32,000 nucleotides of DNA from Candidatus Saccharimonadota bacterium (GCA_016699145.1 CP064962.1:240001-272000), one strand, 5' to 3'; counted from the stretch's first letter, positions 1 through 22,320 are shown. Program-made: numbers and translations. The notes: generated by a model not told the origin, from the sequence alone.

Positions 1-1829
1 GGCAAAGAAGCAATCAAAGGAATGTACACGACCGGACGCGGTGGAGTGACTGTGCGCGCCAAAGCCGAAATTCAAGAAGAAAAAAGTGGACGTTTCCGCA
101 TTGTGATCACGGAAATTCCTTACCAAGTCAACAAAGCCAGTCTGGTTGAAAAAATTGCCGAACTGGTGACCGAAAAGAAAATTGTGGGTATTTCTGACCT
201 GCGCGACGAATCCAACCGTGAAGGAATGCGCATTGTGATCGAACTCAAAAAGACTCCTACCCCAACAAGATTTTGAACCAGCTCTACAAGCTCACCCCGT
301 TGCAGATCAACTTCAACGTGAACATGATTGCGTTGGTGGATGGCATCCAACCTCGCCTTTTGAACCTCAAACAAGTGCTGGAGTACTTCATCTTGCACCG
401 AAAAGAAGTCATCACTCGCCGCACGGTTTACGAACTCAAAGTCGCTAAAGCTCGCGCTCACATTTTAGAAGGGCTCAAAATTGCGCTCGACCACATCGAT
501 GAAGTCATCGCCACCATTCGTGCCGCCGACACCAAAGAAGAAGCGCACGCCGCCCTCATCAAGAAGTTCAAGCTCTCCGATTTGCAAGCCACGGCCATCC
601 TCGAAATGCGTCTGCAAACCCTCGCCGGCCTGGAACGCAATAAGATTGAAGACGAACTCAAAGAAAAGATTGCCCTCATTGAAGAGCTCGAAGGCATTTT
701 GGCCGATGAAAAGAAGGTTTTGAAAATCATGCAGGCTGAATTCAAGGAAATCAAAGACAATTACGGCGATGCACGCCGCACCGAAATCGTGCCTCACGCC
801 CTCGGTGAATTCTCTGTAAAAGACACCATTCCGAACGAGGACATGGTGGTGGTGCTCACCGAAGAAAATTACATCAAGCGCGTGCACCCCTCCGCCTTCA
901 CTCGCCAAGCGCGCGGAGGTCAAGGTAAACTCGCCATGAGCACCAAAGAAGAGGATGAAATCGCCATTTTGCGCTTCGCTCGCAACCACGACAAACTGCT
1001 GTTCTTTACGAACACCGGGCGCACTTTCCAACTGCCTGTCTACGAATTGCCCAAAGCAACTCGCCAGGCCAAGGGAACCCCGCTCATCAACCTGATCCAA
1101 CTCACCAAAGATGAAACCGTTACCGCCATGCTCGTGGTGGTGGACGAAAAATTCGGCGGACAATTCCTCTTCATGGCCACCGAAAAAGGAACCGTGAAAA
1201 AAACACCTGTCGAAGACTTTAAAAATGTGCGCAAATCAGGACTCATCGCCATCAAGCTCCGCGAGGACGACTGCCTCTCTTGGGTGAAACAAAGTTCTGA
1301 AGGAGACCATATTATGATGGTGACTCGCGAAGGAAAATGCATCCAGTTCGATCAAGCCGACGCTCGCCCGATGGGACGCGCTTCCATGGGAGTGCGTGGC
1401 ATCAAACTCAGAGCTGGAGATGAAGTCGTAGAAATGGATGTGGTCAAAGACATGAGCTCCGACTTACTGGTCGTGATGGAAAATGGACTTGGAAAACGAA
1501 CTCCACTTGAGGAATATCGCTTCCAAGGACGCGGAGGGTCCGGCGTGAAAACCGCCAACCTCACCGAAAAGACCGGCAAACTCGTGGGCGCCAAAGTCAT
1601 TGAACCCGGCACCGAAGGCGACATCATGATTGTTTCCAAAAAAGGAGTGATGATCCGCAGCAGTTTAGACAGCGTGCCCGCTCGAGGACGCGCCACCCAA
1701 GGCGTCTACCTGATGCGTGTGAAGGGCGACGACAAAGTCGCTTCCATGTCCTTCATTGAGAAAGGAGAAGAAGGCGAAGGCAGCACCGAAGAAGAAGAAA
1801 CCACAGAAGAACAGACGGCTCTTGTGTAA
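1..1829 (+). CDS. gyrA: DNA gyrase subunit A, C-terminal part. The 5' end is upstream of the window, and the frame is interrupted by an apparent 1-nt loss at 247-252.
   Basis: Frame 1 is open from base 1 (GKEAIKGMYTTGRGGVTVRAK...). ORFs 22..276 and 273..1829 join as ...MRIVIELKK/DSYPNKILNQLYKLTPLQINF if one base is added in the A5 run. Supporting motifs: LEMRLQTLAGLE, a GyrA-box-like QARGGQG, repeated beta-pinwheel CTD blades, and an acidic tail GEEGEGSTEEEETTEEQ. Confidence 0.9.
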
Positions 1830-1850
1830 AACCCAGGCCACCCTTTCCAC

Positions 1851-1931
1851 GCCCACAAACTCGCCGTCGCCCGCCAAACCAACCTCGACATGCCCCGCAA
1901 CTTGGCAAAGTCAGTGACGGTGAGATGTTAG
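1851..1931 (+). pseudogene. Orphan 3'-terminal fragment of a glmS gene (last ~26 codons plus stop) with no gene body.
   Basis: It translates AHKLAVARQTNLDMPRNLAKSVTVRC-stop. The resident GlmS C-terminus (16451-16528) reads AYKLAVARQTDPDMPRNLAKSVTVK-stop. The fragment begins about 20 nt after the gyrA stop (TAA 1827-1829). Confidence 0.8.
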
Positions 1932-2221
1932 AGGCTTGAATCTAAAATATTTTCGCAACCTTTTAGAAAGGAAATAATATTTTTAGGATTTAATCCTATT
2001 TTTGGTTTATTCAAAATCACTGCTTCAGTGAGATCATCTTTGGTGCGCAATTCAAGCGATGAATCGCGTCCATCAAAAACCAAACTGTATTCCCTACCTT
2101 TATATCTAACAAGAGAGTACCAACTTCCAAAAGAATTGGCATGATAGTGATGTTCAGTCGTTACAAACTGAATTTCCTTCATGCCAACTTCAACTTCAGA
2201 CATTAATTTAAAATGATCCAT
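1928..2221 (-). CDS. Hypothetical 97-aa protein, last gene of the island operon.
   Basis: ORF track. Its ATG (2219-2221) lies 1 nt after the upstream gene's TAA (2223-2225). Its stop (1928-1930) overlaps the stop of the glmS fragment. No family recognised. Confidence 0.5.
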   Translation of the reverse strand: MDHFKLMSEVEVGMKEIQFVTTEHHYHANSFGSWYSLVRYKGREYSLVFDGRDSSLELRTKDDLTEAVILNKPKIGLNPKNIISFLKGCENILDSSL

Positions 2222-2222
2222 T

Positions 2223-2719
2223 TTATTGCGTGTAGCGATCTTCGTAATAAAGCTCCCGAGTGTCGAGGTGGTATTCTATCGTGTAAACCTTCCAGGCATG
2301 CCCTCCTAAAAATTCAGAATGCACAAATTCATAACCATAGTCGGTTGGCCCCCAGATTGCCTCAGTTCCGAGCGCATCGACTGGGTCTACGTCAGGAACG
2401 TAGACTTTGATTGTAAAATGGAGTCAACCATGCCTTCTGCAGACATCTCGTCAAGGAAGCGGATGTCGTAATGAACACTAGAGCTTTGAAAGTTATAGTC
2501 AGATTCATTCCTTAACACGAGAATATTTTCAGGAATAGCAACATCCGCGATGCGTTCGACTTCATTGCCATCCACGGGGCCACCAAAAAATTCGAGTACA
2601 AGCGCAAGTACGACTATAAGTAAACTTGCTAGTATGTAGAGGAAAAATCCTGTTATGCACACTGCAACTCCACCTAAAAGCAAACGACCTAACAATAAAA
2701 CTGGTTTTTGAATATTCAT
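2223..2719 (-). CDS. Hypothetical N-terminally membrane-anchored protein, with its frame broken between 2390 and 2423.
   Basis: The 110-aa ORF 2387..2719 has a hydrophobic N-terminus (LLLGRLLLGGVAVCITGFFLYILASLLIVVLALVL). A second frame continues without any start codon as ...IKVYVPDVDPVDALGTEAIWGPTDYGYEFVHSEFLGGHAWKVYTIEYHLDTRELYYEDRYTQ-stop (TAA at 2223-2225). That continuation can only be the same gene. Confidence 0.45.
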
Positions 2720-2738
2720 AAGGCAATCTTATCAAAAT

Positions 2739-3776
2739 TCAATTCCTATCAAAAGGAAATCCCCCCTTCTCAACAGAAATCATTACACTGCGTAAAAGAG
2801 GGTTGTGAACAAGAAATTGGTGTAAACCGACCGTATCCATTTCAATTGCAACAGAATCGCCGGGGGAAAGACTCATGCGTTCAGTGATCCCTAGAATTTC
2901 GAAATCGAGTACTTCCTCAAGTTCATTTTTAACAGTGAGCATTTGGCCCACTTCGCTACGAGTCCACGTCTCACTGATAAAATCTTCCCGCACTAAAATG
3001 GTATTGGCGGGCACCTGTTCTCCACGCCCTAAGTGCCAGGCCTCCCAAAAGAAAAGTCCTACGACAAGAGTCGCAAGCATTATGTAAGGGAAAATACGAT
3101 TCAAACGTTGCCTTAAAAGTAAAGGCTTCTCACAAAACCATCCTAGCGGAAATCCATAGAAAAGATGCGCACCATAGGCAATGGCCAAGGCTTTGTAAGC
3201 TGTTCTTATGCCATAAATAGCTCCAAAAGGAGTCAAAACGGCTAAGGTTTCGAGGAGAAGACCCCACAGCACAGCCCACCCAATGGATTTATTTTTCATC
3301 ACTAAGGAGTAAATCCATGCAAAAGTGATCCCATTTGAGAAATGATAAAAAAGTCCTGTTAGATCACTCAAAACAGTACTGGACTGCACATTCAACAAAT
3401 ACATTCCGTAAGACTGAATAGGTGGGAAGGGATTAAAGCCGAAAAAATGCATGGGGATGCGCACCAAATCGTAGCCCAAGGTGCCCACAAATCCACCGAT
3501 CAATCCTAAGAACATTGCTTCGTGAATACTTTTTAAACCCTTCTTATAAGCCCAAAACCATAGCAAAGAAATGAGTAAGAGGCTGGGTAAAAGCACCCAT
3601 CGACCCAACACGTGCATGGGAGCAGCTCCATATAGAAATCCAAGTAAAGTAAAGATAGAACCAAAGCTCAAAAACCAAAGAGCAGCTCTTACTTGTAATT
3701 CTCTATTTTTAGAAACCAAGAATGATTTCATTGTCAGATTTGTTAGGATGTAATTTTTTTTGTTCCTTATATGCAT
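2739..3776 (-). CDS. Polytopic membrane protein with a C-terminal soluble beta-rich domain, function unknown.
   Basis: About 7 hydrophobic segments, then a ~90-aa tail (TILVREDF...LTVKNELEEVLDFEILG...GDSVAIEMDTVGLHQFLV) vaguely cupredoxin-like but without obvious Cu ligands. An AAGGA lies 7 nt before the ATG at 3776. An alternative ATG at 3731 would shorten the 68-nt overlap with the upstream gene. Confidence 0.55.
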   Translation of the reverse strand: MHIRNKKNYILTNLTMKSFLVSKNRELQVRAALWFLSFGSIFTLLGFLYGAAPMHVLGRWVLLPSLLLISLLWFWAYKKGLKSIHEAMFLGLIGGFVGTLGYDLVRIPMHFFGFNPFPPIQSYGMYLLNVQSSTVLSDLTGLFYHFSNGITFAWIYSLVMKNKSIGWAVLWGLLLETLAVLTPFGAIYGIRTAYKALAIAYGAHLFYGFPLGWFCEKPLLLRQRLNRIFPYIMLATLVVGLFFWEAWHLGRGEQVPANTILVREDFISETWTRSEVGQMLTVKNELEEVLDFEILGITERMSLSPGDSVAIEMDTVGLHQFLVHNPLLRSVMISVEKGGFPFDRN

Positions 3777-5118
3777 TTTCTAATCCTTTTAGAGTTTTTC
3801 CACCGGTGTTCCCGAAATGACCTGGATCATATTTATTACTCCAAGCTCCACCCCAGTCATCAAAACCATGTTGTTTGGCGATTTCACTGATTTTACGCCA
3901 CGTTCCATTGGGCAGTCTTTTGCCCGCATCATCAAACGTGATCACTTGCCCCTTATTATCAAAAGCAGAAACATCTATAGCACGTCCATAGTTATGCCAA
4001 CTTTTTCCACCTTTAGCGTTCGTTGCTTTTGAGTTAGTCTTCCGAATTTCATCTTGCTGATTCATAGTACGAAAATGTCCATCAGAATTAACACGCAGTC
4101 TAATTCCCATATCTTTTTCTACATGATTAATAAAATCAATGCCATTTTGTATGACGTCTGGATGACAGTCTTTTAAGCGGTCAACATTACGAGGATCCCA
4201 AGTAGAAGAAGGTCCCCAAGGATCATTTCCAATGCTTTTAGCTTTTGCTGCTACACCAGCCCCAAAAGCTCCAAAGGTACAAAAGAGACTAGGGTTTAAG
4301 CCGGTTTCCAATAAATCTAAAAATCCATCACTCATTAACCATTTTCCAAAAGAACCACCCGCCTCACTCCAACCACCATCATCAGCAGAAACATAATGCG
4401 CATCTAAAAGGGAAATAAACACCACTCCATTTATAGCCCAAAAAAATAGATGAGCTACACGAGAGTTATTTTTCTTAAAAAAGAACATGCTGGCAGCACC
4501 TACTAAAGCGAAGCCCAAGAGCCATTTCAATGGGACGAAAGCACTCACTATTAAAGTGATACCAAATATGAAAATCAAAATTTTTGTGAACGACTTTGTG
4601 AGAAGTGTACTCTTATGAAAATACTTTAACATCTTATGAAGATTCCAAAACAAAAACCTTAATAGAAAGTCCCCGAAAAAATTCCCAATAACAAAGATGA
4701 TTGTTAGACCCAAAGTAAAACTAAAAGCTTGTCCTAAAAATTTGCCGATTAGTAATGAAGCACCAATGAACCCAAAGAGTAAGAAAAGTTTTTTTTGATC
4801 AAGTCGAAAAATCTCTCGAATGATCTCAAATGGAGTAGTTAGGAGTAGATGACAATATTTCTTCAAACCATAGTAAGAGATACTGTCCATTGTAGACCAA
4901 AACAAAAATCCAAATAAAAACCATACTAAATAGATCAAAAAAGAGGATTGATCAGTGGTAACATATTGACTCCAAGAATTATCAACCTGGTAATGGAATC
5001 CGTCTAACTTGAATGCTAATATGTAAGTATGGAATATCCAGCTACTGAAAAAAGTGATCCCCATTCGTAAAATGAAATGTTTTATGTTTTGTCTGAAAAA
5101 CAAATCCTTCAAATGCAT
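3709..5118 (-). CDS. Polytopic membrane domain (~7 TM) fused to a C-terminal M15/LAS-family zinc peptidoglycan peptidase (VanY/endolysin-like).
   Basis: The C-terminal ~140 aa contain SWHNYGRAIDV (H-x6-D, plus-strand 3973-3996) and YDPGHFGN (D-x-x-H, His codon at 3817-3819). This is the metal-ligand pattern of D-Ala-D-Ala carboxypeptidase / L-Ala-D-Glu peptidase folds. The N-terminal ~300 aa are strongly hydrophobic. ATG at 5116-5118 is preferred over TTG at 5124. Confidence 0.7.
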   Translation of the reverse strand: MHLKDLFFRQNIKHFILRMGITFFSSWIFHTYILAFKLDGFHYQVDNSWSQYVTTDQSSFLIYLVWFLFGFLFWSTMDSISYYGLKKYCHLLLTTPFEIIREIFRLDQKKLFLLFGFIGASLLIGKFLGQAFSFTLGLTIIFVIGNFFGDFLLRFLFWNLHKMLKYFHKSTLLTKSFTKILIFIFGITLIVSAFVPLKWLLGFALVGAASMFFFKKNNSRVAHLFFWAINGVVFISLLDAHYVSADDGGWSEAGGSFGKWLMSDGFLDLLETGLNPSLFCTFGAFGAGVAAKAKSIGNDPWGPSSTWDPRNVDRLKDCHPDVIQNGIDFINHVEKDMGIRLRVNSDGHFRTMNQQDEIRKTNSKATNAKGGKSWHNYGRAIDVSAFDNKGQVITFDDAGKRLPNGTWRKISEIAKQHGFDDWGGAWSNKYDPGHFGNTGGKTLKGLENAYKEQKKLHPNKSDNEIILGF

Positions 5119-5180
5119 AGTCAAAGATTAGAACATCTGATCTGGATTTTCAATCTTCAAGCCTTTAAACAACGGTCACC

Positions 5181-6080
5181 ATGCAAGACAAGATTCAAAG
5201 CATCGTTGATGCTATCAATCTTTGCTCAAGGAAGAAGCTCAATCTTTTAAATAGATGGCGGGTTCGGGCTATTTCGAAGAGGGTTTTACCAGCGGAAATA
5301 TATAGACATTACACTCGGAATAATCAATACCTTTCCGAACTTACTTGGATATATCAACTGAAACAAGCGTTTAAAACATCCCAGCCTTTACCAAGTAGTG
5401 CGACCATGTGGCACTATGTTAAACAAATTCTTTCCGAGACCATGCAGCTACATGCTCTGATGTTTTTGATTCAACTCACAATTGAAAATGAAGGGGTCAA
5501 AGAGGCTATGCCCTATGTTGAAAAATCTTCAAGTTATAGAGCTTACAGGCTGCTATTGGATTATTATGCAGGTGAGGCAGATTTAGAGCATTTTCTGCAC
5601 TTTTATAAAAAGGCTGAACCTAAAAAAAAGCAGAATAGGATTGGACTGATTAAGTGTAAATTTGTTTCACATTATTCTGATAAGTTTGGTGTCGACCTTG
5701 GGTTGAAGTTGTGTCAAAAAGCTCCTTTTAGCCAGACTCAGTTGTACTCGGCTCTGGCACCCCATTTCTCAAAAATAACTTACAAAGAAGCGAAGAAGTT
5801 GCTTAAGAGCATACTTCAAAAATACCCTCTTGTCCAAGAAATAGACCACTGTGAAGCTTGTTTTTTAACCATGGCTTTTAGTTCGGACAAGAATGCAGCG
5901 CATGCAAAGGACTTCGCAGAACTATTTCAGATAGTTACTGCCATTCCAAAGACAGCGAAAGCTGGTGATTTTCGATTGCGGGATTGTCTTTTACTCGACA
6001 TTGCAAGGAAGTGTGCAGGAAATGTGGAACAATCGATTCTTTGCAAAAAGGCTATTATAAATCCGAAGCTAAAAAATTAA
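5181..6080 (+). CDS. Hypothetical 299-aa, apparently all-helical cytoplasmic protein.
   Basis: ORF track. Divergent from the island operon across a 62-nt spacer. No TM segments and no recognised motifs. Confidence 0.5.
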   Translation: MQDKIQSIVDAINLCSRKKLNLLNRWRVRAISKRVLPAEIYRHYTRNNQYLSELTWIYQLKQAFKTSQPLPSSATMWHYVKQILSETMQLHALMFLIQLTIENEGVKEAMPYVEKSSSYRAYRLLLDYYAGEADLEHFLHFYKKAEPKKKQNRIGLIKCKFVSHYSDKFGVDLGLKLCQKAPFSQTQLYSALAPHFSKITYKEAKKLLKSILQKYPLVQEIDHCEACFLTMAFSSDKNAAHAKDFAELFQIVTAIPKTAKAGDFRLRDCLLLDIARKCAGNVEQSILCKKAIINPKLKN

Positions 6081-6907
6081 CGTATTTTTTTAAAGTTAAA
6101 AATCAGCCATCCTTTATCCAATGCATCGTTAGAATAATATGGGAATATACCTAAAGAGGAAGCGTCTGTTTTAGAACCGTCATTCAGTAATAAATGGTCT
6201 GATTGAATAAAATAATCTGAATAAGAAGTCAGTTCATACAAAGCCTGTATATTTTCTTCGAATAGATCACATTTGCGGCAAGAAACAGCCCGACCATTAT
6301 TGAAGAAACCAGCCAGACCTGCATTAGAACTGTAGAGGTACTGCAAAGTCAACTCGGGTTCTTCTTCAACTAAAAGAGTTTTGATGACGGACTCAATTTT
6401 CTTCCTATCGGATGGATGAGGTTCTCTGTAGATAAAAACTAAAGCCTTATCCAGTGAAATTGGATAGTAATGAAAAATATCAGGAATACCAATGTCGGTT
6501 GCCACCGAAAATCTATAACCTTGAATAGTGGACTCATTTATGGGCTGAAAATCAAACTCCTCAAAAGGATTTAATCCAGGTACAGAAAATTCATAATTTG
6601 ATATTATTTTCACAATTTCTTCCTTACTCAAATTTGTAATACCGAAGTTTACAGTATCAGTGCCTACATATTCATTCACTGCATCAAATCTGAGCTGAGC
6701 TCCCGCGACAAGATCAATACCCCACTTGTTGAACGTCTTATTACTTTCATCCAACTCCCAACCTTCTGGGTATGCAAGAGAAAAGCCATATTCCTCATTT
6801 TCATAAATCATCCAATTTGAATGGTTCACATAGGAATAAATTCCATAAGCCCCAGTGGTCACAATCACCACAATAAGTAAAACAACTTCTCTTGGTCTCA
6901 TATCCAC
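6077..6907 (-). CDS. Hypothetical membrane-anchored or secreted protein.
   Basis: N-terminal anchor VVLLIVVIVTTGAYGIYSYV, followed by the WMIYENEEYGFSLAYPEGWELDE pattern common in uncharacterised extracytoplasmic proteins. Shares a TTAA double stop with the 5181..6080 gene. Confidence 0.55.
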   Translation of the reverse strand: MDMRPREVVLLIVVIVTTGAYGIYSYVNHSNWMIYENEEYGFSLAYPEGWELDESNKTFNKWGIDLVAGAQLRFDAVNEYVGTDTVNFGITNLSKEEIVKIISNYEFSVPGLNPFEEFDFQPINESTIQGYRFSVATDIGIPDIFHYYPISLDKALVFIYREPHPSDRKKIESVIKTLLVEEEPELTLQYLYSSNAGLAGFFNNGRAVSCRKCDLFEENIQALYELTSYSDYFIQSDHLLLNDGSKTDASSLGIFPYYSNDALDKGWLIFNFKKIR

Positions 6908-6944
6908 ATTTTAGCACAAATGGAATTTCGGTCTAATCCTCCTC

Positions 6945-6973
6945 TTGCAAAAAAGCCACCTCCCTATCATAAT
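6945..6973 (+). promoter_or_regulatory. Sigma70-like promoter candidate for the surface-protein gene.
   Basis: TTGCAA (6945-6950), a 17-nt spacer, then CATAAT (6968-6973). This favours the ATG at 6996 (MRRALLALLSL...) as the start codon. Confidence 0.35.
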
Positions 6974-6995
6974 GCAGCCACCTATTCTGCCCTCC

Positions 6996-8225
6996 ATGCG
7001 CCGCGCCCTTCTCGCTCTTTTGAGCCTGGTCTTATTTTCTTCCACTGCTTTTGCAGCCGGAGACCTTTCCTTGAACGCTTCCAGTTTGCAACTCAGTGCC
7101 GATTCTTGCCTGGAAGGGCACAGCATTCGCATTTGGGTGTCAGTGAGCAACAACAGCACAGAAGACCTGCTGGGTTCCGTGCGCTTCACCGCAAACGGGG
7201 TACAAGTGGGCTCGGATCAAGGAGTTTCCGCCCTTGCAGGGAAAAGTGATGAAGTTTTTTTGAACTGGACCCCTCCAAGCTATGGTACCTTCACCCTCAC
7301 AGCCAATCTCAGCCCCTGGGAAAATGCAGGTGACGATCCTTCCAACAACAGCGTTTCCAAACAAGTGACCGTAGGCCAAGACACCGACCGCGATGGAGTC
7401 GCCAACAGCAGCGACAGCGATGACGATAACGATGGCACCCCCGACAGCGACGATGTTTTCCCAACCAATCGAAACGAAAACAAAGACAGTGACGGAGACG
7501 GCCAAGGCAACAGCGCCGACACAGACGATGACAACGACGGCACCTCCGACACAGAGGATCACTTGCCGGAAGATTCCCGCTACACCAAAGACCAAGATGG
7601 AGACAGCATTCCCAATGAATTGGATGAAGACATCGATGGAGACCAAGTTTCAAACGAAGAAGAAACCGCCCAAGGCACCATCACAACAGAAGCCGACAGC
7701 GACAAAGATCTGGTACTGGATGGCATAGACCTCTTCCCTCTTGATGAAACCGAATGGGCAGACCTCGATGCAGACGGCATCGGCGACAACAGCGATCCCG
7801 ACATCGACAACGATGGAATTTTAAACGAAACCGATCCCGATCCCAGCAATCCCGCACCTGAAGCAGCAGTGAACGATTCAGTCATCCTCACAAGTTTAGA
7901 TGAAGAAGTGACCTTCGACGCCAGCGCCTCCATGGACAACAATGAAATTGTAAAATACACCTGGACCTTTGGAGAGGAGGTGGTGGAAGGCAAAACGGTG
8001 ACCCATCGCTTTGAACAAAAAGGCGCTCAAGTGGCCACTCTCACCGTGTACGATGCCGAAGGACAATCGGACACTCTGGAAGTTAAAGTGCATGTTTTTG
8101 GACAAAATTTCCTCGTCAAAGCCATTGCCTTCAGCCTCGTCTTACTTTTACTTGCGTTCTACCTTATCTATCGCTATAATCGGCGGGCTTCTGGGGAAAA
8201 ACCCAAGAAAAACGCTAAAAAATAG
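6996..8225 (+). CDS. Secreted surface protein: signal peptide, CARDB-like domain, Asp-rich thrombospondin-type-3-like Ca-binding repeats, PKD-like domain, C-terminal TM anchor.
   Basis: MRRALLALLSLVLFSSTAFA signal. Repeats DTDRDGVANSSDSDDDNDGTPDSDD / DSDGDGQGNSADTDDDNDGTSDTED (about 7380-7850). VKYTWTFGEE...ATLTVYDAEGQSDTLEVKVHV (PKD-like, about 7870-8095). LVKAIAFSLVLLLLAFYLIY plus a Lys-rich tail. Confidence 0.75.
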   Translation: MRRALLALLSLVLFSSTAFAAGDLSLNASSLQLSADSCLEGHSIRIWVSVSNNSTEDLLGSVRFTANGVQVGSDQGVSALAGKSDEVFLNWTPPSYGTFTLTANLSPWENAGDDPSNNSVSKQVTVGQDTDRDGVANSSDSDDDNDGTPDSDDVFPTNRNENKDSDGDGQGNSADTDDDNDGTSDTEDHLPEDSRYTKDQDGDSIPNELDEDIDGDQVSNEEETAQGTITTEADSDKDLVLDGIDLFPLDETEWADLDADGIGDNSDPDIDNDGILNETDPDPSNPAPEAAVNDSVILTSLDEEVTFDASASMDNNEIVKYTWTFGEEVVEGKTVTHRFEQKGAQVATLTVYDAEGQSDTLEVKVHVFGQNFLVKAIAFSLVLLLLAFYLIYRYNRRASGEKPKKNAKK

Positions 8226-8228
8226 CTT

Positions 8229-8546
8229 ATGAAAACGGAGATTCACCCTCAATACTTCCAAGACGCAGTGACCGTGTGTGCAAACTGCAAAAAGGAATTC
8301 ACGTTCGGAAACACCAAGGAAACGGTTCAAGTGGAAATCTGTTCCAACTGCCACCCTTTCTACACCGGTAAAAAGATGCTCATCGACACCGAAGGACGCG
8401 TGGACAAATTCCAACAAAAACGTGCCGCTGCAAAACCGGTGGCTAAAAAGGATCGTAAGAAGAAGACTTTGGAAGAGCGTGTGAACGAAGAGCTTTCCGC
8501 TCAATTGGCCAAAGAAAAGGCTAAACTCGCGAAGAAAGAAGACTAA
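8229..8546 (+). CDS. rpmE: 50S ribosomal protein L31 (Zn-ribbon type) with a ~40-aa Lys/Glu-rich C-terminal extension.
   Basis: MKTEIHPQY...VCANCKKEF...CSNCHPFYTGKKMLIDTEGRVDKF. Confidence 0.9.
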   Translation: MKTEIHPQYFQDAVTVCANCKKEFTFGNTKETVQVEICSNCHPFYTGKKMLIDTEGRVDKFQQKRAAAKPVAKKDRKKKTLEERVNEELSAQLAKEKAKLAKKED

Positions 8547-8548
8547 AC

Positions 8549-9679
8549 ATGTTTGAATTCAAACTAGAAACGGCCTCCAAAGAGTGCAATGCTCGCTTGG
8601 GCCGTTTTTTGACTCCACACGGGGAAATCAAAACACCCGTCTTCATGCCGGTTGGCACCAAAGCCACGGTCAAATCCCTCGACCCCAAAGACCTAGAAGG
8701 ATTAGGCGCTCAAATCATCTTGGCCAACACTTATCATTTGGCCATGCGTCCCGGCTCTGAATTGGTGGCTAAAATGGGCGGCCTCCACAAGTGGATGAAC
8801 TGGCCTCATCCTCTTTTGACCGATTCCGGTGGCTTTCAAGTCTTCTCGCTGGGCGCAGACGAAGCGGGCACTTTCAAACCCAAAATCAGCGACGACGGCG
8901 TGGAATTTCGCTCGCACCTCGATGGCAGCACTCACTTTTTTAGCCCAGAAGAAGCCATTCGCATTCAAGAAAATTTAGGAGCAGACATCATCATGGCTTT
9001 TGACGAATGTGCCCCCGCAAACGTGGACGAAATTTATGCTCGCAAGGCGATGGAACGCACACACGACTGGGCCAAACGCTGCCTCGCCGCCAAAACCCGC
9101 GAAGATCAAGCGCTCTTCCCTATTGTACAAGGAAGCCGCTTCAAAACATTGCGCGAAGAATCTGCCAAGTTCATGGCGAGCCTCGATACACCGGGTATTG
9201 CCATCGGCGGCGTTTCCGTGGGAGAAGATTTTGAACAAAAATTTTATGCAATCGATTGTGCCATCCCTTTTTTGCCCAAAGACAAGCCTCGTTACCTGAT
9301 GGGCGTCGGCACTCCCGACGACATTTTGGAAGCCGTGGAACGCGGCATCGACATGTTCGACTGCGTACTGGCCACCCGCCTTGCCCGCCACAAAGCCTTT
9401 TGGGATTTCGATGGGCGCCACGACATCAGCAATGAAATCTACAAGTTGGACGAAACGCCGCTCTGCCCCGAACTGCCCTGCTACGCCTCTCGCGATTTTT
9501 CAAAAAGCTACCTGCGCCACCTCATGATTGAAAACGAGCTCTTGGGCATCCGTCTACTGACTTTGCACAACATCGCCTTGCTCTTATATTTAATGGAACA
9601 AATTGGCGTTCACATCGCCGTAAGAGACTTTCTAAACTTTAAAAAGGCTTTCTTGAAAAGATTTAAAAGCATAAAGTAG
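8549..9679 (+). CDS. tgt: Queuine tRNA-ribosyltransferase.
   Basis: ARLGRFLTPHGEIKTPVFMPVGT, ILANTYHL, LTDSGGFQVFSL, YLMGVGTPDDILEAV, SYLRHL...LLTLHNI. Confidence 0.9.
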   Translation: MFEFKLETASKECNARLGRFLTPHGEIKTPVFMPVGTKATVKSLDPKDLEGLGAQIILANTYHLAMRPGSELVAKMGGLHKWMNWPHPLLTDSGGFQVFSLGADEAGTFKPKISDDGVEFRSHLDGSTHFFSPEEAIRIQENLGADIIMAFDECAPANVDEIYARKAMERTHDWAKRCLAAKTREDQALFPIVQGSRFKTLREESAKFMASLDTPGIAIGGVSVGEDFEQKFYAIDCAIPFLPKDKPRYLMGVGTPDDILEAVERGIDMFDCVLATRLARHKAFWDFDGRHDISNEIYKLDETPLCPELPCYASRDFSKSYLRHLMIENELLGIRLLTLHNIALLLYLMEQIGVHIAVRDFLNFKKAFLKRFKSIK

Positions 9680-10329: not shown

Positions 10330-11172
10330 ATGCTTGAAGATGGATTTTTATCAGAAACAAGAAAAAAGCCGGCTACACCAGAGCGCTTTAGCAAAATAAC
10401 TCTGATCCAATTTCCGGGCATTGGAAATGGAGTTTTAGACGAGGCAAAGACTCCATTTTTGAACAGCAAATACTTCAACAAGGAAGCGGCTGGAAAACCT
10501 TTCGAAGCTTTAGCTGCTAAAGGGATACAAACAGAAACAGTCCATGTGGCTTGGAATAAAGTCAAAGCCTCCCTCCCTCAAATCCCTGGGCTGGCCATCG
10601 CCACCAATTGTCATGCCTATTACAACGACCCTGAGTACAAACAACGAGTCATGGAAATGGTGAGCCAAACGATAGATCCTTACTTAGCTCAAGAGGACCC
10701 AGGTCTCATTTGCTTTCAAACCCACAGCTTCGGCGCCGTAGTGCTCACCGATTATTTAAAGAAAGCAGAACAGGAAGGAAAACTGGAAGCCTTCAAAGCC
10801 AAAGGCGGAGCATTCGACGTGATGATGCTCAGCCCCGCTCTCGATGAAATGGGAGCAGGCTTAATCAGTTCCAAAAACAAAATCATCCAAACCCTAGGCA
10901 TGAAGGTGGATCGAGAAGCCATTGAAGGAATTTACCGAAGCAGAGCACGCCGCGTATTGGGCCTTTCCATCAAAGGAGATCCTTTGACAGGAAGGTGGAT
11001 GCCTCAAGGAGAAAACATCACAAACCTCACTTTGGAACCTGAGTGGGGGAGATGGAATACATTTGTGCATGCGATCACAACGGGCAATGCACATCATTGG
11101 GGCATTTTTACCGACCCCAATGCTCAATGGGTCATGACAGAGTGGCTGAAGGGGACTAATCTAAGCATATGA
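10330..11172 (+). CDS. Alpha/beta-hydrolase-like protein of unknown specificity.
   Basis: A nucleophile-elbow-like CFQTHSFGAVV (x-S-x-G), with later GDPL and HHW as candidate Asp/His. This is only a pattern match. Confidence 0.4.
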   Translation: MLEDGFLSETRKKPATPERFSKITLIQFPGIGNGVLDEAKTPFLNSKYFNKEAAGKPFEALAAKGIQTETVHVAWNKVKASLPQIPGLAIATNCHAYYNDPEYKQRVMEMVSQTIDPYLAQEDPGLICFQTHSFGAVVLTDYLKKAEQEGKLEAFKAKGGAFDVMMLSPALDEMGAGLISSKNKIIQTLGMKVDREAIEGIYRSRARRVLGLSIKGDPLTGRWMPQGENITNLTLEPEWGRWNTFVHAITTGNAHHWGIFTDPNAQWVMTEWLKGTNLSI

Positions 11173-12140
11173 CCCGCGGTCAGTTAGCCGAAAGAACTAG
11201 GCGATCGATAGGAGGAGACCCACACGCACTCGCTCAATTAACACAAGGTCTTTTTGATGAGGCTGGAATGGCCTCCATTTCGCCCAGCGATACAGGGGGC
11301 ACTAATACTGGATATGGAGATGCTCTCGACCCTGTAAGAGCTGCTCATTGCACCATTAGGAACGAGAGCCAACGAACCGGTGCATTGATTCGAGGTCTTT
11401 ACCAAAAAGTAAACGAGCTTCGACAAAAATACCCAAACAGACCCGTACGCATTGCAGAATTGGGCTGCGGCCCTTTAGCGCCCATTGCTCTGAGCGTAGC
11501 CAGTCTTTTTCAACCGGAAGAAGTCCGCTTACTCCTTGTCGATATTCATAACGAGTCCTTAGCAATTTTAGAAAGATTGAGTGAAAAGCTCAAACTTAAA
11601 GGGCACATAGAGACTCTAGAACAAGGAAATCTTCTTGTAGGGAACTGGGGCCATCTAAGGCCAGATATTGTGGTACTTGAAGTCATGATGGCAGCTCTTC
11701 TGCGTGAACCACAAGGGGCTGTTACAGCCCATCTTGCCCCTCAATTCGAACCATCAACCCTCTGGTTACCTCAAAAAATTGAAGTTACAGGAAGCCTATT
11801 TCATGGAAGTGAAACTCCAGCTTCCAAATGGATTTCCCTTGGACCCATCTGCAGCATTGATCCTCATTTTAGAGAGCGTGCACGAGAAGGCACACCCTTA
11901 CAAAAGTTGATATCGGTTAAGAGGGGTTTTCAACTACCAGAACCACTAACACGCACTCAAAATCTTCGTTTGCACACGAGGGTAGAAGTCATACCTGGGA
12001 TAGAAATACCTCTGGGTTCAGTAATCACCAAAGATGTGATTTCTGAATGCAATGGCAGAGCTCAAACTGGACACCGGGGCATCCATGTCCGCTACACAAT
12101 GGGAGCGGATCACGTGGACTTCCACTCCACAGAATCGTAA
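11169..12140 (+). CDS. Class I SAM-dependent methyltransferase with PRMT-like features.
   Basis: Motif I VRIAELGCGPLAP (about 11446-11484), post-I LLLVDIHNES, and LEVMMAALLREP (11679-11708), where two Glu are separated by 8 residues as in the PRMT double-E loop SEWMGYxLLxE. Its ATG overlaps the upstream TGA (ATGA at 11169-11172). Confidence 0.55.
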   Translation: MTRGQLAERTRRSIGGDPHALAQLTQGLFDEAGMASISPSDTGGTNTGYGDALDPVRAAHCTIRNESQRTGALIRGLYQKVNELRQKYPNRPVRIAELGCGPLAPIALSVASLFQPEEVRLLLVDIHNESLAILERLSEKLKLKGHIETLEQGNLLVGNWGHLRPDIVVLEVMMAALLREPQGAVTAHLAPQFEPSTLWLPQKIEVTGSLFHGSETPASKWISLGPICSIDPHFRERAREGTPLQKLISVKRGFQLPEPLTRTQNLRLHTRVEVIPGIEIPLGSVITKDVISECNGRAQTGHRGIHVRYTMGADHVDFHSTES

Positions 12141-14558: not shown

Positions 14559-14717
14559 TGGCCTGTCCCCAGGCTGAGAAGGCATAAATATCCTAGCATC
14601 ATCAACATGATGAACTTCCATACTTTTAAAAAAGATAAGGAAAAACTAATGAGCTTTTTCCGCAGAGTAAAGGCAAAAAACAGACTTTCAGCTTGATTTG
14701 CCCACATCCCCATGGCC

Positions 14718-14749: not shown

Positions 14750-16528
14750 ATGTGCGGCATCTTCGCCTATCTCGGACCCAATGAAAAAGCAGCAGAAATT
14801 GTGCTCAAAGGATTAAAAAAACTGGAATACCGCGGTTACGACTCCTGGGGTATCGCTGCCCAAGTTGCAGGGGGTGACATTAAAATTGAAAAACATGTGG
14901 GGAAAATCTCTGAAGTCATCAATCTCAGCGAAAAACTGACTCAGCCCTCACACCTCGCCATGGGGCACTCCCGCTGGGCCACTCACGGAGGCGTCACGCA
15001 ATACAACGCCCACCCCCACACCACCGAAAACCAAGACATCGTGGTGGTGCACAACGGTATTTTTGAAAACTATTTGGAACTCAAAGAGGCGCTCATCGAA
15101 AAAGGTCATCAATTCCGCTCAGAAACCGACAGTGAAATTTTTGCCCATCTCATTGAAGAAGAAATCGCTTCTGGCTTCGAAACCGCCTTCAAAAAAGCCT
15201 GCGCCAAAGTCACCGGACGTTTCGCCATTTTGGCTCTCCACAAAGGAGAGGATAAGCTCATCGCCGCCCGCCGTGGCTCCCCACTCATCGTGGGCAAAGC
15301 CGATAATGGAGCGCTTTTCGTAGCCTCCGACGTGCCCGCCTTCTTGGAATACACCAAAAAAATCCAATACCTCGACGACAATCAAATGGTTGTGCTCGAC
15401 GCCGAAGGCACCCATTTTTATGATCTGGACAGCGACCGACTCATCCAAAAACGCCTCATTTCCATCGACTGGAAAGAAGAAGAAGCCGAAAAGGGAGACT
15501 ACCCCCACTTCATGATCAAAGAAATCATGGAGCAAAAAGAAACCTTAACCAGAGCCATCAATTCGGAACCCGCCTTGATCCAAAAAGCCGTAGAAATGAT
15601 CAAAAACGCTTACGGCACCACCCTCGTGGGCTGCGGCACCGCCGGAAAAGTAGCCATGATTGGCGAATATTTATTTGCCAACATTGCCAAACGCCATGTG
15701 AATGTGAAGTTCGGCTCCGAATTCAAAAGCGCCCGCCACTTCCTCACAGAACGTTCCCTGGTCATCGCCATTTCTCAATCGGGGGAAACCGCCGACACCC
15801 TCGAAGCGCTGGAAATCGCCAAAAGCAAAGGAGCCAAAATCATCTCGATTGTGAACGTAGAAACCTCCACCATGGCCCGCCTGTCGGACCTTGTGATCCC
15901 CTTAAAAGCAGGACCCGAAAAAGCCGTGGCTTCCACCAAAGCCACCACCTCTCAAATCGCCATTTTAACCTTATTGGCTTACGCCGTGGCCGGACGAGCG
16001 GACGAAGGCAAGCAACTGCTCATTGAAGCAGAAGCCAAACTCAATGATCTGCTCAACCCTCGTTATGAATGCCACATTGAATCGGTAGCCGATCAAATCA
16101 AGGATGCCAAAGACATCATGATCATTGGGCGCGACATGAATTTTCCCATCGCCCTTGAATCCGCCATCAAATTGCAGGAGGTGTCTTACATCCATGCCGA
16201 AGGTTTTGCCGGTGGCGAATTGAAACACGGCCCCATCGCCCTGATTTCAGAGGGCACACCCTGCATTGTGATCGCCCCCAACGACGAATATAAAAGTGAA
16301 ATCTTATCCAACGCCATGGAGTTGAAAGCGCGCGGCGCACTGCTCATTGGCATTTCGCCCGACAACGCCGAAATTTTCGACATCTGGATCAAAGTGCCTA
16401 GCGTCGGCAACGCCTCCCCCATTCTGGACTTGATTCCCATTCAAATTTTGGCGTATAAACTAGCCGTCGCGCGTCAAACCGACCCCGACATGCCTCGCAA
16501 CCTCGCGAAATCTGTTACTGTTAAATAA
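14750..16528 (+). CDS. glmS: Glutamine--fructose-6-phosphate aminotransferase.
   Basis: MCGIFAY N-terminal Cys nucleophile, HSRWATHG, two SIS domains (SQSGETADT), C-terminus DMPRNLAKSVTVK. Confidence 0.95.
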   Translation: MCGIFAYLGPNEKAAEIVLKGLKKLEYRGYDSWGIAAQVAGGDIKIEKHVGKISEVINLSEKLTQPSHLAMGHSRWATHGGVTQYNAHPHTTENQDIVVVHNGIFENYLELKEALIEKGHQFRSETDSEIFAHLIEEEIASGFETAFKKACAKVTGRFAILALHKGEDKLIAARRGSPLIVGKADNGALFVASDVPAFLEYTKKIQYLDDNQMVVLDAEGTHFYDLDSDRLIQKRLISIDWKEEEAEKGDYPHFMIKEIMEQKETLTRAINSEPALIQKAVEMIKNAYGTTLVGCGTAGKVAMIGEYLFANIAKRHVNVKFGSEFKSARHFLTERSLVIAISQSGETADTLEALEIAKSKGAKIISIVNVETSTMARLSDLVIPLKAGPEKAVASTKATTSQIAILTLLAYAVAGRADEGKQLLIEAEAKLNDLLNPRYECHIESVADQIKDAKDIMIIGRDMNFPIALESAIKLQEVSYIHAEGFAGGELKHGPIALISEGTPCIVIAPNDEYKSEILSNAMELKARGALLIGISPDNAEIFDIWIKVPSVGNASPILDLIPIQILAYKLAVARQTDPDMPRNLAKSVTVK

Positions 16529-16538
16529 CCCCTTTCTT

Positions 16539-16865
16539 ATGAGTCTCGAAAATGAAGCCGATATTGAAACCCCAAAAACCTTGGAAGCTGTTTTGACTCT
16601 GCTATCTACAGAAGACCGACAGAATGCCCTAAATGGTCTCGCTGAAGAGAAGCGTTTACAAAGAAAAAACACCGAAGGAAACTGGGTTTCAGTTGGCGTA
16701 GTAATAGCCAATGAAGAAGGCATAACAATTCTAGGGGAAAAGTCATCTGAAGAAGGAGTTGAGCAGCAGTCAGCTAAACCAGCTACGATCCAAGAGAAGA
16801 AGATAGATGTGAATATAAACCATATTCCATGGAATATGGTGAAAGAAAAGCTTCGCATTCTGTAG
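16539..16865 (+). CDS. Hypothetical acidic 108-aa protein.
   Basis: ORF track. Starts 10 nt after glmS and is followed by a strong terminator. No family recognised. Confidence 0.45.
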   Translation: MSLENEADIETPKTLEAVLTLLSTEDRQNALNGLAEEKRLQRKNTEGNWVSVGVVIANEEGITILGEKSSEEGVEQQSAKPATIQEKKIDVNINHIPWNMVKEKLRIL

Positions 16866-16887: not shown

Positions 16888-16916
16888 AGCTCCCTTGCGT
16901 AAGGGGGCTTTTTTTG
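16888..16916 (+). terminator. Rho-independent terminator.
   Basis: agctccctt-gcgt-aagggggct gives a 9-bp stem (one G-U pair) and a 4-nt loop, followed by T7. Confidence 0.75.
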
Positions 16917-16953
16917 GTACAATAAAAGGATTTTAAAACATAAATAAAAACGT

Positions 16954-21841: not shown

Positions 21842-22320
21842 ATGCGCATCCTCGGTTTAGACCCCGGCCTCGCCACCATCGGCTACGCACTTTTAGACTG
21901 CCAAAAGGGCGGGAAAAAACTGCTCACTTGCGGAGTGATTCGCACGGCCGCTCACTCGAGTCTAGGGGCTCGCCTCAAAGAAATTCATCAAGATTTTGGC
22001 CAACTGCTCAAAGAATTGAAACCCGACCACTGTGCAGTTGAACAAATTTTTTTTCAAAGAACATCACCACCGGAATCAACGTGTCTCACGCTCGCGGCAT
22101 TTTACTTTTATGTTTGGAGGAATACGGCATCCCTTTGACTGAATTTTCGCCCAGCGCCATGAAGCGCGCCCTCACGGGTGACGGACGCGCCGACAAAAAA
22201 AACATCCAAAAAATGGTGATGCTCGAACTGGGGCTGCGCGCGGCTCCTCAGCCCGATGACGCCGCCGACGCCGTAAGCCTTGCCCTGACGCTCGCGGCTA
22301 CAGTAAGATGGGCCCAATGA
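21842..22320 (+). CDS. ruvC: Holliday junction resolvase RuvC, with its frame interrupted in the T8 run at 22047-22054.
   Basis: MRILGLDPGLATIGYALL...AVEQIFF, then (with one extra T) SKNITTGINVSHARGILLLCLEEYGIPLTEFSPSAMKRALTGDGRADKKNIQ...PQPDDAADAVSLAL. Confidence 0.85.

What the first reader, a model, noticed from the sequence alone, without database searches (positions are those of the whole stretch)
1830..1931. Orphan, synonymously diverged glmS 3' end wedged between the gyrA stop and an A/T-rich island
Right after the gyrA TAA (1827-1829) the same frame reads NPGHPFHAHKLAVARQTNLDMPRNLAKSVTVRC-stop. From AHKL onward this is the conserved C-terminus of GlmS, with no glmS body upstream. The intact glmS lies about 12.8 kb away in the same orientation and ends AYKLAVARQTDPDMPRNLAKSVTVK. 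I aligned 1857-1925 against 16457-16525 by hand and counted about 54 of 69 identical bases. Most differences are at third codon positions, and 20 of 23 residues are identical. The fragment is therefore not a recent copy of the resident gene. It descends from a separately evolving, once-functional glmS, either a displaced native end, a xenolog, or an old paralog. The last ~30 codons of glmS are the recognition sequence for glmS-homing elements (Tn7 TnsD/attTn7 and related Tn7-like and CRISPR-associated transposons). Such elements insert just downstream of the stop. Here the compositionally foreign island starts at the very base after the fragment's stop, and a minus-strand gene's stop overlaps it. 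This looks like the scar of an attTn7-like junction that was later rearranged, so that gyrA now abuts the fragment, or like an att-site decoy.
Basis: partly seen in the sequence, partly recalled or inferred. Interest (0 to 1): 0.65.

Follow-up and report, generated by a model that had tools for sequence, protein, structure and literature searches.

The report
Stray glmS tail heading inserted island
A dead copy of the last 25 codons of the glmS gene sits at the leading edge of a 5-kb block of foreign, A/T-rich DNA inserted between two normally adjacent genes of a Peribacteria (candidate phyla radiation, CPR) genome. It is a familiar kind of horizontal-transfer scar found at an unusual address, and it hints that the end of glmS is a landing site for cargo DNA in this lineage.

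Summary
Window 1851-1925 is homologous to the last 25 codons of the resident glmS (54/69 nt, 20/23 aa). Differences fall 3:2:13 by codon position. Four changes occur at positions that do not vary in 120 relatives, which marks later decay.

Context changes the picture. In 12 related Peribacteria loci, gyrA is followed within -4 to +32 nt by the PKD-domain gene. The window has 5.17 kb there instead. The fragment is therefore the left end of one lineage-specific insertion (about 1854-7000, 38.5% GC against 51%). gyrA was not rearranged onto it.

The island has no transposase, integrase or Tn7 genes, and its genes have no close relatives anywhere. The resident glmS carries a second footprint:
- a 310-bp A/T-rich single-ORF insert lies exactly at its stop codon;
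- a vestigial native end is displaced behind that insert;
- the last 25 codons carry excess lineage-specific synonymous changes (P=0.003), starting in the same register as the orphan.

Best reading (confidence 0.42): cargo elements home to the glmS terminus and carry a substitute gene end, as e14 does in icd. One such element integrated at a secondary site. A Tn7-type scar is not supported. This is a new member of a known kind and of moderate interest.

The parts
273..1829 (+). 3' part of gyrA with its native stop at 1827-1829. The gene runs off the window start.
   Evidence: Pfam DNA_gyraseA_C 8.8e-69. 87-95% aa identity to Peribacteria GyrA, with the tail ...QTALV* conserved.
1830..1853 (+). 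Native DNA left of the insertion. It is the spacer or the remnant of the first codons of the PKD gene (CCTTTCCACGCC = P F H A; compare S F H A/T in L010 and L001).
   Evidence: Junction comparison with relatives. This is inference, because the sequences are short.
1851..1931 (+). Orphan glmS 3' end. Homology runs from 1851-1857 to about 1923, with a decayed end AGA TGT TAG. It has no start codon and no gene body.
   Evidence: Its Y->H, P->L, K->R and extra Cys occur in none of 120 homologues.
1932..6995 (.). A/T-rich island (38.5% GC) absent from all 12 relatives. ORFs are 1928-2221(-), 2387-2719(-), 2739-3776(-), 3709-5124(-; membrane domain plus Peptidase_M15_4), 5181-6080(+) and 6077-6907(-). 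The right boundary lies somewhere between 6908 and 7008.
   Evidence: for composition and absence from relatives. Searches find no mobility or defence genes. One search gives 49% as the closest relative of the 345-aa protein among 5.8 billion proteins.
6945..6973 (+). Promoter-like site TTGCAA-17-CATAAT in front of the PKD gene. Relatives have no room for a promoter here.
   Evidence: consensus match only; the number of such sites equals the shuffle expectation. Inference.
6996..8225 (+). PKD/CARDB-domain surface-protein gene. In relatives it starts -4 to +32 nt after the gyrA stop.
14750..16528 (+). Resident, syntenic, intact glmS.
   Evidence: About 81% nt identity to L001, L002 and L229.
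16451..16528 (+). Last 25-26 codons of the resident glmS, with an excess of window-specific synonymous states (7/25 against 42/567).
   Evidence: Fisher P=0.0026. The unsupervised breakpoint falls at 16451-16453 (permutation P=0.002 with three relatives, 0.024 with six).
16529..16838 (+). 310-bp insert (about 41% GC) placed exactly at the resident glmS stop. It holds one ORF (16539-16865, 108 aa), ends in a perfect 20-nt palindrome at 16820-16839, and is absent from ten relatives.
16839..16847 (+). Vestigial displaced native glmS end, GTGAAAGAA (compare the functional GTTAAATAA at 16520-16528). Native downstream DNA and the conserved promoter of the next gene follow it.
   Evidence: Alignment A2 and inter.aln. 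GGTGAAAGAAAAGC against L231 GGTGAAATAAAAGT matches 12/14.

Best explanation
Shown. The fragment is a dead relic of the last 25 codons of a Peribacteria-type glmS. It is the left-hand end of a single A/T-rich insertion of about 5.15 kb (about 1854-7000) that separated gyrA from the PKD-domain gene, which follows gyrA directly in all relatives. It is therefore a transplanted junction of a glmS end with cargo DNA. It is neither a remnant of a gene that once stood there nor a copy of the resident gene.

Inferred mechanism. In this lineage, A/T-rich cargo elements home to the very end of glmS by recombination inside its last codons. They bring their own substitute gene end, so the essential gene stays intact. 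Prophage e14 does the same with icd, leaving the displaced fragment icdC. One such element, led by its substitute end, integrated at a secondary site in the first codons of the PKD gene just after gyrA. Freed from selection, the substitute end then decayed (Y->H, P->L, K->R, +Cys). The recombinase has been lost or acts in trans from elsewhere in the 1.34-Mb genome. The resident glmS shows a second, smaller footprint of the same process.
For: (1) Twelve relatives have the PKD gene's ATG -4 to +32 nt after the gyrA stop, against 5166 nt in the window.
(2) Island proteins have no homologue in the relatives' loci, and island GC is 38.5% against 51%.
(3) The fragment is about equally distant (55-61/75 nt) from every glmS of the clade. 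Differences are 3:2:13 by codon position (P=0.00085), so most divergence accrued while it was translated.
(4) Its four odd residues occur in none of 120 homologues, which indicates later decay.
(5) At the resident glmS, a 310-bp A/T-rich insert starts exactly at the stop. A vestigial copy of the native end (GTGAAAGAA plus native downstream DNA) lies behind it. This is the e14/icd geometry in miniature.
(6) Window-specific synonymous states are enriched in the resident gene's last 25 codons (7/25 against 42/567, P=0.0026). None of six relatives shows this. The unsupervised breakpoint at 16451-16453 matches the register where the orphan's homology starts (1851-1857).
(7) This kind of element exists. 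IMG/VR holds phage contigs with orphan glmS ends (L156, L164, L218), and both serine and tyrosine integrases abutting glmS ends (L191, L216). The e14/icd/icdC precedent is in PMC13626634.
Against: - No integrase, transposase or excisionase was found in the island or anywhere in the 32 kb.
- Neither insertion has significant direct or inverted repeats at its ends. The candidate 8-bp duplication (CCACGCCC/CCGCGCCC) and 9-bp duplication (GTTAAATAA/GTGAAAGAA) are imperfect and not significant on their own.
- At the resident locus only about 9-13 nt of the displaced native end are recognisable, not 76.
- The window-specific changes fall in two clusters with a native-looking middle, so no clean cassette swap is visible.
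- No other genome with this island next to an intact glmS was found; the closest relative of the 345-aa island protein is 49% identical and lies in an unrelated context.
- The two A/T-rich inserts share no sequence.
Confidence: 0.42

Rival explanations
1. A random piece of another Peribacteria chromosome was taken up and inserted by illegitimate, microhomology-mediated recombination. It comprised the end of that organism's glmS and whatever lay downstream of it. No site-specific machinery was involved, and the left end falls inside glmS by chance.
For: There are no mobility genes, no significant terminal repeats and no att-like repeats. A 3-nt overlap (GCC) is shared by the native flank and the glmS reading at the left junction. 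The fragment is of Peribacteria type.
Against: The donor would still need A/T-rich foreign DNA starting exactly at its glmS stop, as the resident gene has today, so a glmS-terminal hot spot is needed anyway. The left break coincides within a few nt with the breakpoint in the resident gene. The one island gene whose homologues were searched, the 345-aa protein, is not Peribacteria-like: its best match is 49%, on 62%-GC contigs.
Confidence: 0.3
2. The orphan is this genome's own original glmS end, displaced when an element gave the gene a substitute end (the icdC analogue), and later moved next to gyrA by a further rearrangement.
For: At third codon positions the orphan is as close to the six nearest relatives (9-13/25, mean 11.7) as they are to each other (8-16/25). 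The resident end is further from them (14-19/25).
Against: A displaced native end should lie downstream of glmS and be followed by native DNA. This one lies 14.6 kb upstream, is followed by the island, and sits inside an otherwise perfectly syntenic gyrA-to-glmS stretch. A vestigial native end is already present behind the resident gene. With 25 codons the distances cannot discriminate; the orphan is closest to the distant L030 and to L231 (9/25 each).
Confidence: 0.1
3. It is the scar of a Tn7-like or CRISPR-associated transposon at an attTn7-type site, with TnsD/TniQ homing to the glmS end, later degraded and rearranged.
For: glmS ends are the classic Tn7 target. Degraded Tn7-like islands without transposition genes are common at glmS in other bacteria: 54/203 A. 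baumannii genomes carry one, and fewer than half are intact (PMC11014353). Tn7-like elements about 20 nt after glmS appeared in my IMG/VR scan (L143, L193, L223).
Against: There are no TnsA/B/C/D, TniQ or Cas genes. No TGT...ACA ends or terminal repeats were found. Foreign DNA begins at the stop codon rather than about 20-25 nt downstream, and no 5-bp duplication is present (for the Tn7 rules). Tn7 neither duplicates nor replaces the gene end, whereas the resident locus has a duplicated end.
Confidence: 0.05
4. It is an assembly chimera: reads from a second population carrying glmS plus the island were wrongly joined after gyrA.
For: The source is an uncultivated-organism genome, and there is a sharp GC step. 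I could not inspect reads.
Against: Two false joins would be needed, and both would have to return to the native context. No repeat long enough to mislead an assembler is shared between the junctions and glmS. The contig is 1.34 Mb.
Confidence: 0.04
5. It is an in-place remnant of an ancestral or paralogous glmS that once followed gyrA, or it is kept as a decoy att site.
For: None beyond the presence of the fragment itself.
Against: No relative has glmS or any fragment of it after gyrA. The resident glmS is the syntenic orthologue. The fragment has decayed at invariant positions, which argues against maintenance.
Confidence: 0.03

Closest known systems
Prophage e14 (and phage 21) integrated in the 3' end of E. 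coli icd, with the displaced fragment icdC
   Same: An essential or metabolic gene is used as the landing site. The element supplies a substitute 3' end that differs mostly at synonymous sites. A dead C-terminal fragment of the gene is left as a marker (PMC13626634, citing Hill et al. 1989). The resident glmS here has foreign DNA right after a working end and a vestigial native end behind it.
   Different: No integrase is present. The long (76-nt) orphan lies at a non-glmS site, 14.6 kb upstream. At the resident locus the recognisable duplication is only about 9-13 nt. Excision is untested.
Tn7 / attTn7 and Tn7-like or CAST elements that home to glmS through TnsD/TniQ
   Same: The same gene end serves as the address, and cargo islands accumulate right after glmS. 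Degraded, gene-less remnants are common (PMC2918618, PMC11014353).
   Different: There are no Tns/TniQ genes, no Tn7 ends and no 5-bp duplication. The offset is zero instead of about 20-25 bp. The gene end is duplicated, which Tn7 does not do.
Cis-mobilisable or degenerate integrative elements (CIME-type remnants of ICEs and genomic islands integrated in 3' ends of genes such as fda, guaA or tRNA genes); recalled from general knowledge, not checked here
   Same: They are islands without their own recombinase that keep a piece of the target gene at one edge. Tandem accretion and secondary-site integration are known routes to odd arrangements.
   Different: Those elements keep recognisable att repeats at both ends. 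None is demonstrable here.
Phage or provirus contigs in IMG/VR that carry orphan glmS 3' ends (L156, L164, L218), or integrases abutting a glmS end (L191 serine recombinase, L216 tyrosine recombinase)
   Same: They hold short glmS C-terminal coding pieces with no gene body inside mobile DNA.
   Different: They come from unrelated hosts with other sequences. I did not establish their att sites.

Membership tests
GlmS C-terminal coding sequence (homology of the fragment) | Significant similarity to the conserved ...AYKLAV.R...PDMPRNLAKSVTVK end of Peregrinibacteria GlmS | tested here: met
   tblastn E=3e-11, blastn E=5e-14 to L030, nhmmer profile E=4e-4 over 1899-1923, 22/24 residues identical to P0034.
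Tn7-like / CAST transposon at attTn7 | TnsA/TnsB/TnsC plus a TnsD/TniQ target selector encoded in the element | tested here: not met
   Pfam, PHROGs, NCBIfam and PADLOC scans of all six island ORFs and the 108-aa ORF found none, and Pfam scans of the other large ORFs of the window (plus NCBIfam for three of them) found none either. The rest of the genome is not available.
Tn7-like / CAST transposon at attTn7 | Insertion about 20-25 bp downstream of the glmS stop, with a 5-bp target duplication | tested here: not met
   Foreign DNA starts within 0-5 nt of the stop in both copies. The rule is taken from PMC2918618.
Tn7-like / CAST transposon at attTn7 | Terminal TGT...ACA ends with repeated TnsB-binding sites in inverted orientation | tested here: not met
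   No inverted similarity between island ends above the shuffle level (P=0.57). The island does begin with TGT at 1926-1928, which alone means nothing.
Integrase-type integrative element with a substitute 3' end (e14/icd type) | Tyrosine or serine recombinase gene in the element | tested here: not met
   None found in the island or elsewhere in the 32-kb window. A single-sequence AlphaFold model of the 299-aa ORF was too poor to use (pLDDT 46).
Integrase-type integrative element with a substitute 3' end (e14/icd type) | Element-borne copy of the target gene's 3' end, kept translatable (divergence mainly synonymous) | tested here: met
   Codon-position pattern 3:2:13, P=0.00085. A donor chromosomal origin would give the same pattern.
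Integrase-type integrative element with a substitute 3' end (e14/icd type) | Target gene ends in element-derived sequence, and a displaced native end lies at the far side of the element | tested here: inconclusive
   At the resident glmS a vestigial native end sits at 16839-16847 behind a 310-bp insert. The last 25 codons show excess lineage-specific synonymous change (P=0.0026). However, the duplication is short and the change is patchy.
Integrase-type integrative element with a substitute 3' end (e14/icd type) | att core repeats at both ends; ability to excise | tested here: inconclusive
   The candidate repeat CCACGCCC (1847-1854) / CCGCGCCC (7001-7008) does not exceed chance. Excision cannot be tested with these tools.

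The most novel reading that the evidence does not exclude
Peribacteria, and perhaps other CPR bacteria, host a so-far undescribed class of small A/T-rich cargo elements. These would home to the stop-codon region of glmS, carry a replacement gene end, and move without any recognisable integrase or transposase, either through a new enzyme among the island's unknown proteins or through a host-encoded or trans-acting recombinase. The window would then hold two independent footprints of the class: a 310-bp single-gene insert at glmS itself and a 5-kb island at a secondary site.
Probability: 0.12. Interest if true: 0.7.

Novelty: new member of a known kind. Interest (0 to 1): 0.38.

Why it matters
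Mobile elements and integration sites are almost undescribed in CPR bacteria, which have tiny genomes and no cultured, genetically tractable members. If the end of glmS is a recurrent landing site there, it offers a marker for detecting horizontal transfer between these organisms. It would also be a candidate safe-harbour site for future genetic tools. The case also shows that an orphan gene end need not mark the place where the gene once stood, because it can travel with the cargo. As a single locus without an identified recombinase it remains a modest finding.

Tried and rejected
1. Finding the window's own contig or strain-level relatives by exact protein look-up: nothing on record.
2. Finding the island elsewhere:
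   - The 345-aa protein has no relative above 49% among 5.8 billion proteins, and those contexts have no glmS.
   - The IMG/VR (viral contigs) scans with the 471-, 276- and 299-aa proteins found no relatives. A megablast of window 1-8600 against the GenBank phage records found nothing. tblastn of the 471- and 345-aa proteins against those records gave only domain-level endolysin-type hits to the M15 domain.
3. The single metagenome scan, run with the tgt protein, was largely wasted. It returned only one useful relative, L030.
4. A search with a 43-aa chimeric peptide meant to find the donor GlmS gave one irrelevant hit.
5. Flanking direct repeats and terminal inverted repeats for both insertions did not exceed shuffles.
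6. Similarity between the two A/T-rich inserts: none.
7. By eye, the DNA after the orphan's stop looked like the native glmS-downstream promoter region. A profile built from 11 sequences did not support this; homology ends at 1923.
8. RNA families (Rfam) and tRNA genes as alternative integration targets: none in the window.
9. Structure prediction of the 299-aa ORF to look for a hidden recombinase: pLDDT 46, so I did not take it further. PDB sequence searches were empty.
10. An integron-cassette reading of the 310-bp insert (G|TTAAAT junction plus palindrome): the palindrome is far shorter than known attC sites and the inverse core match is poor. I did not pursue it.

Full report
**Observation**

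gyrA ends with TAA at 1827-1829. The same frame then reads NPGHPFHAHKLAVARQTNLDMPRNLAKSVTVRC* up to 1931. Window 1857-1925 matches 16457-16525, the end of the intact glmS (14750-16528), at 54 of 69 bases in register. Shifted registers give 13-24 matches. The repeat finder reports the same pair (D2). A GlmS C-terminal peptide finds only these two places in the 32 kb, with E=5e-14 and 3e-11. Over 75 nt the differences to the resident gene fall 3/2/13 by codon position, and 13 or more of 18 at third positions has P=0.00085 under an even spread. GC falls from 59% in the fragment to 38.5% over 1932-6996, against about 51% on both sides. The minus-strand ORF 1928-2221 stops inside the fragment's last codons. 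Homology to glmS runs from 1851-1857 to about 1923, and 1830-1850 is not glmS.

**Organism and relatives**

The window is from a Candidatus Peribacteria (Peregrinibacteria, CPR) genome whose contig is 1.34 Mb long. A genome scan with the GyrA C-terminus gave eleven related loci that also carry the PKD gene (L001-L011), and a metagenome scan gave one more (L030).

**Synteny**

This result changes the interpretation. In all twelve relatives, the gene after gyrA is the PKD/CARDB-domain gene that sits at 6996-8225 in the window. Its ATG lies -4 to +32 nt after the gyrA stop. rpmE, tgt, ruvA, an M24 peptidase gene and glmS follow in the loci that extend far enough. The window has 5166 nt between the gyrA stop and that ATG. 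None of the six island ORFs has a homologue in the relatives' loci. No relative has a glmS-like piece after gyrA. The fragment and the A/T-rich island are therefore one lineage-specific insertion into an ancestral gyrA-PKD junction, and the glmS fragment is its left terminus.

The 24 nt between the gyrA stop and the fragment look native. CCTTTCCACGCC (P F H A) resembles codons 4-7 of the PKD gene in L010 and L001 (S F H A/T). Joining it to the right side (LLALLSLVLFSSTAFA) gives a signal peptide of the same length as in L010. The insertion may therefore have split the first codons of that gene. The right end would then supply a new start (ATG CGC CGC) and possibly a promoter (TTGCAA-17-CATAAT, 6945-6973). 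This part is inference from short sequences. The right boundary cannot be placed better than 6908-7008. A candidate 8-bp target duplication (CCACGCCC 1847-1854 / CCGCGCCC 7001-7008) does not exceed chance.

**Origin of the fragment**

Its protein sequence is of Peregrinibacteria type. All 120 closest GlmS homologues end in ...PDMPRNLAKSVTVK. None has the fragment's AHK, NLD or an extra residue. The changes Y->H, P->L, K->R and the added Cys are therefore decay after the piece stopped being translated.

At the DNA level the fragment is 55-61/75 identical to every glmS of the clade, including the resident one (57/75). That is the same range as orthologues from different species show with one another. 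Because the divergence is mostly synonymous, it accrued while the sequence was under selection as a GlmS end, either in another organism's gene or as a substitute end carried by an element. It is not a recent copy of the resident gene. The resident gene is the syntenic orthologue, with about 81% nt identity to L001, L002 and L229, the same level as gyrA.

**The island**

Its ORFs are:
- a multi-pass membrane protein with a C-terminal Peptidase_M15_4 (CwlK/endolysin-like) domain;
- a 345-aa membrane protein whose closest relative among 5.8 billion proteins is 49% identical. That relative lies on 62%-GC contigs, in a conserved three-gene module with no glmS nearby;
- four ORFs without any family match.

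I found no integrase, transposase, Tns/TniQ, excisionase or defence gene in the island or elsewhere in the window. There are no viral relatives, no tRNA or Rfam hits, and no terminal inverted repeats.

**A second footprint at the resident glmS**

Ten relatives have the strongly conserved promoter of the next gene (a 1141-aa TSP3-repeat protein in the window) 60-100 nt after the glmS stop. The window has an extra 310 bp (16529-16838, about 41% GC) that begins exactly after the stop. This insert holds one 108-aa ORF and ends in a perfect 20-nt palindrome at 16820-16839. Directly behind it lies a vestigial copy of the native gene end, GGTGAAAGAAAAGC. Compare L231, GGTGAAATAAAAGT, which matches 12/14. 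Native downstream DNA follows. The working end (GTTAAATAA, 16520-16528) and the vestigial end (GTGAAAGAA, 16839-16847) therefore flank the insert.

The resident gene's last 25 codons also carry 7 third-position states found in none of six close relatives, against 42 in the other 567 codons (Fisher P=0.0026). None of the relatives shows such an excess (0-3/25). An unsupervised breakpoint scan places the change at 16451-16453 (permutation P=0.002 with three relatives, 0.024 with six). That is the register where the orphan's homology begins.

This signal has limits. The seven sites form two clusters (16453-16468 and 16516-16522) with a native-looking middle. The signal is suggestive and does not amount to a clean cassette swap.

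**Mechanism**

The following are shown:
- the fragment arrived with the island as one insertion;
- it stems from a separately evolving, once-translated Peribacteria-type glmS end;
- it has since decayed;
- the resident glmS has foreign DNA inserted exactly at its stop, with a displaced native end behind it.

What follows is inference. The end of glmS is a landing site for A/T-rich cargo in this lineage. Recombination takes place inside the last codons, and the incoming DNA supplies a working gene end. This is the logic of e14 in icd, where the functional gene extends into the prophage and a dead C-terminal fragment, icdC, marks the other end (PMC13626634). An element of this kind that integrates at a secondary site places its substitute gene end at its left edge, next to unrelated DNA, which is what is seen after gyrA. 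Tandem accretion at glmS, then excision of the inner element and its reintegration, would explain both footprints with standard integrase biology.

I put this at about 0.42, because no recombinase and no att repeats are demonstrable. The main rival, at about 0.3, is uptake of a random chromosomal piece from another Peribacteria and illegitimate insertion. It needs no enzyme. It still requires a donor with foreign DNA starting at its glmS stop, and it leaves the coincidence of breakpoints unexplained.

A Tn7-type scar is unlikely (0.05). Tn7 inserts about 20-25 bp past the stop, makes a 5-bp duplication, leaves the gene end untouched and encodes TnsABCD (PMC2918618). None of this applies here. 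Gene-less remnants at glmS are nevertheless common in other bacteria (PMC11014353).

Another possibility is that the orphan is the genome's own displaced native end. It is closer to the relatives at synonymous sites than the resident end is. This fits the numbers but not the geometry (0.1). I consider an assembly chimera (0.04) and an in-place remnant or decoy (0.03) improbable, for the reasons given under the rival explanations.

**Comparison with known systems**

This kind of feature is known. Orphan gene ends mark integration of islands into the 3' ends of genes, and glmS is a classic address. My IMG/VR scan found several relevant classes:
- Tn7-like elements about 20 nt after glmS (L143, L193, L223);
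- a large serine recombinase (L191) and a tyrosine recombinase (L216) abutting glmS ends;
- true orphan glmS ends inside phage contigs (L156, L164, L218).

Three things are unusual here. The host is a CPR bacterium. The orphan sits at a non-glmS site as the leading edge of the cargo. There is no recognisable mobility gene. I file it as a new member of a known kind.

**Verdict**

The attTn7 and rearrangement story is only partly right. Interest is 0.38. The most novel reading not excluded is an undescribed glmS-terminus-homing cargo element class in CPR bacteria that moves without a known recombinase (probability about 0.12).

Noticed in passing
window 16529-16847: A 310-bp A/T-rich insert sits exactly at the stop of the resident glmS. 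It holds a single 108-aa ORF (16539-16865) and ends in a perfect 20-nt palindrome, CCATATTCCATGGAATATGG (16820-16839). It is flanked by the working gene end GTTAAATAA and a vestigial native end GTGAAAGAA. Ten relatives lack it.
   Followed up: partly
window 16451-16528: The last 25 codons of the resident glmS carry 7 synonymous states not seen in six close relatives, against 42 in the other 567 codons (P=0.0026). The change starts in the same register as the orphan fragment.
   Followed up: yes
window 16890-16953, and after glmS in L001, L002, L004, L007, L008, L010, L229-L231: A very strongly conserved promoter and leader lies in front of the large TSP3-repeat surface-protein gene: CTTGCR-N17-TGGTAYAAT, followed by GATTTAAAA, a few bases further on. 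The T-rich tract followed by TGnTAnAAT recurs before island ORF 6077-6907 (minus strand, 6904-6923).
   Followed up: no
window 10330-12140 and 13119-14621: Two further variable slots exist in an otherwise syntenic stretch. Two unknown ORFs lie between ruvA and the M24 peptidase gene, and a 2-hydroxyacid dehydrogenase gene lies on the minus strand before glmS. Relatives hold different genes there or none (for example L231: 304-aa and 704-aa ORFs).
   Followed up: partly
window 21842-22138: The ruvC ORF is only 98 aa and matches positions 1-72 of the 148-position RuvC profile. It may be truncated or split.
   Followed up: no
window 2739-5124; L027 3195-7732, L028 4189-8336, L029 3682-7751: The 471-aa and 345-aa island membrane proteins have counterparts in a conserved three-gene module (a 660-810-aa protein, a roughly 350-aa protein and a roughly 340-aa protein) on 62%-GC metagenome contigs of unknown taxon. 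Function unknown.
   Followed up: partly
IMG/VR loci L156 (about 185-300), L164 (about 1380-1455 on the minus strand), L218 (about 1240-1335 on the minus strand), L191, L216: Phage or provirus contigs carry orphan glmS C-terminal coding pieces of 12-29 codons. Other contigs have a large serine recombinase (L191) or a tyrosine recombinase (L216) directly beside a glmS end. Several element types other than Tn7 therefore use the glmS end.
   Followed up: partly
window 6996-7070 compared with relatives: The window's PKD-domain protein has a shorter signal peptide with a different n-region (MRRA...) than its closest relatives (MKKSFH..., MKKTLH...). This is consistent with its first codons having been replaced when the island was inserted.
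   Followed up: partly
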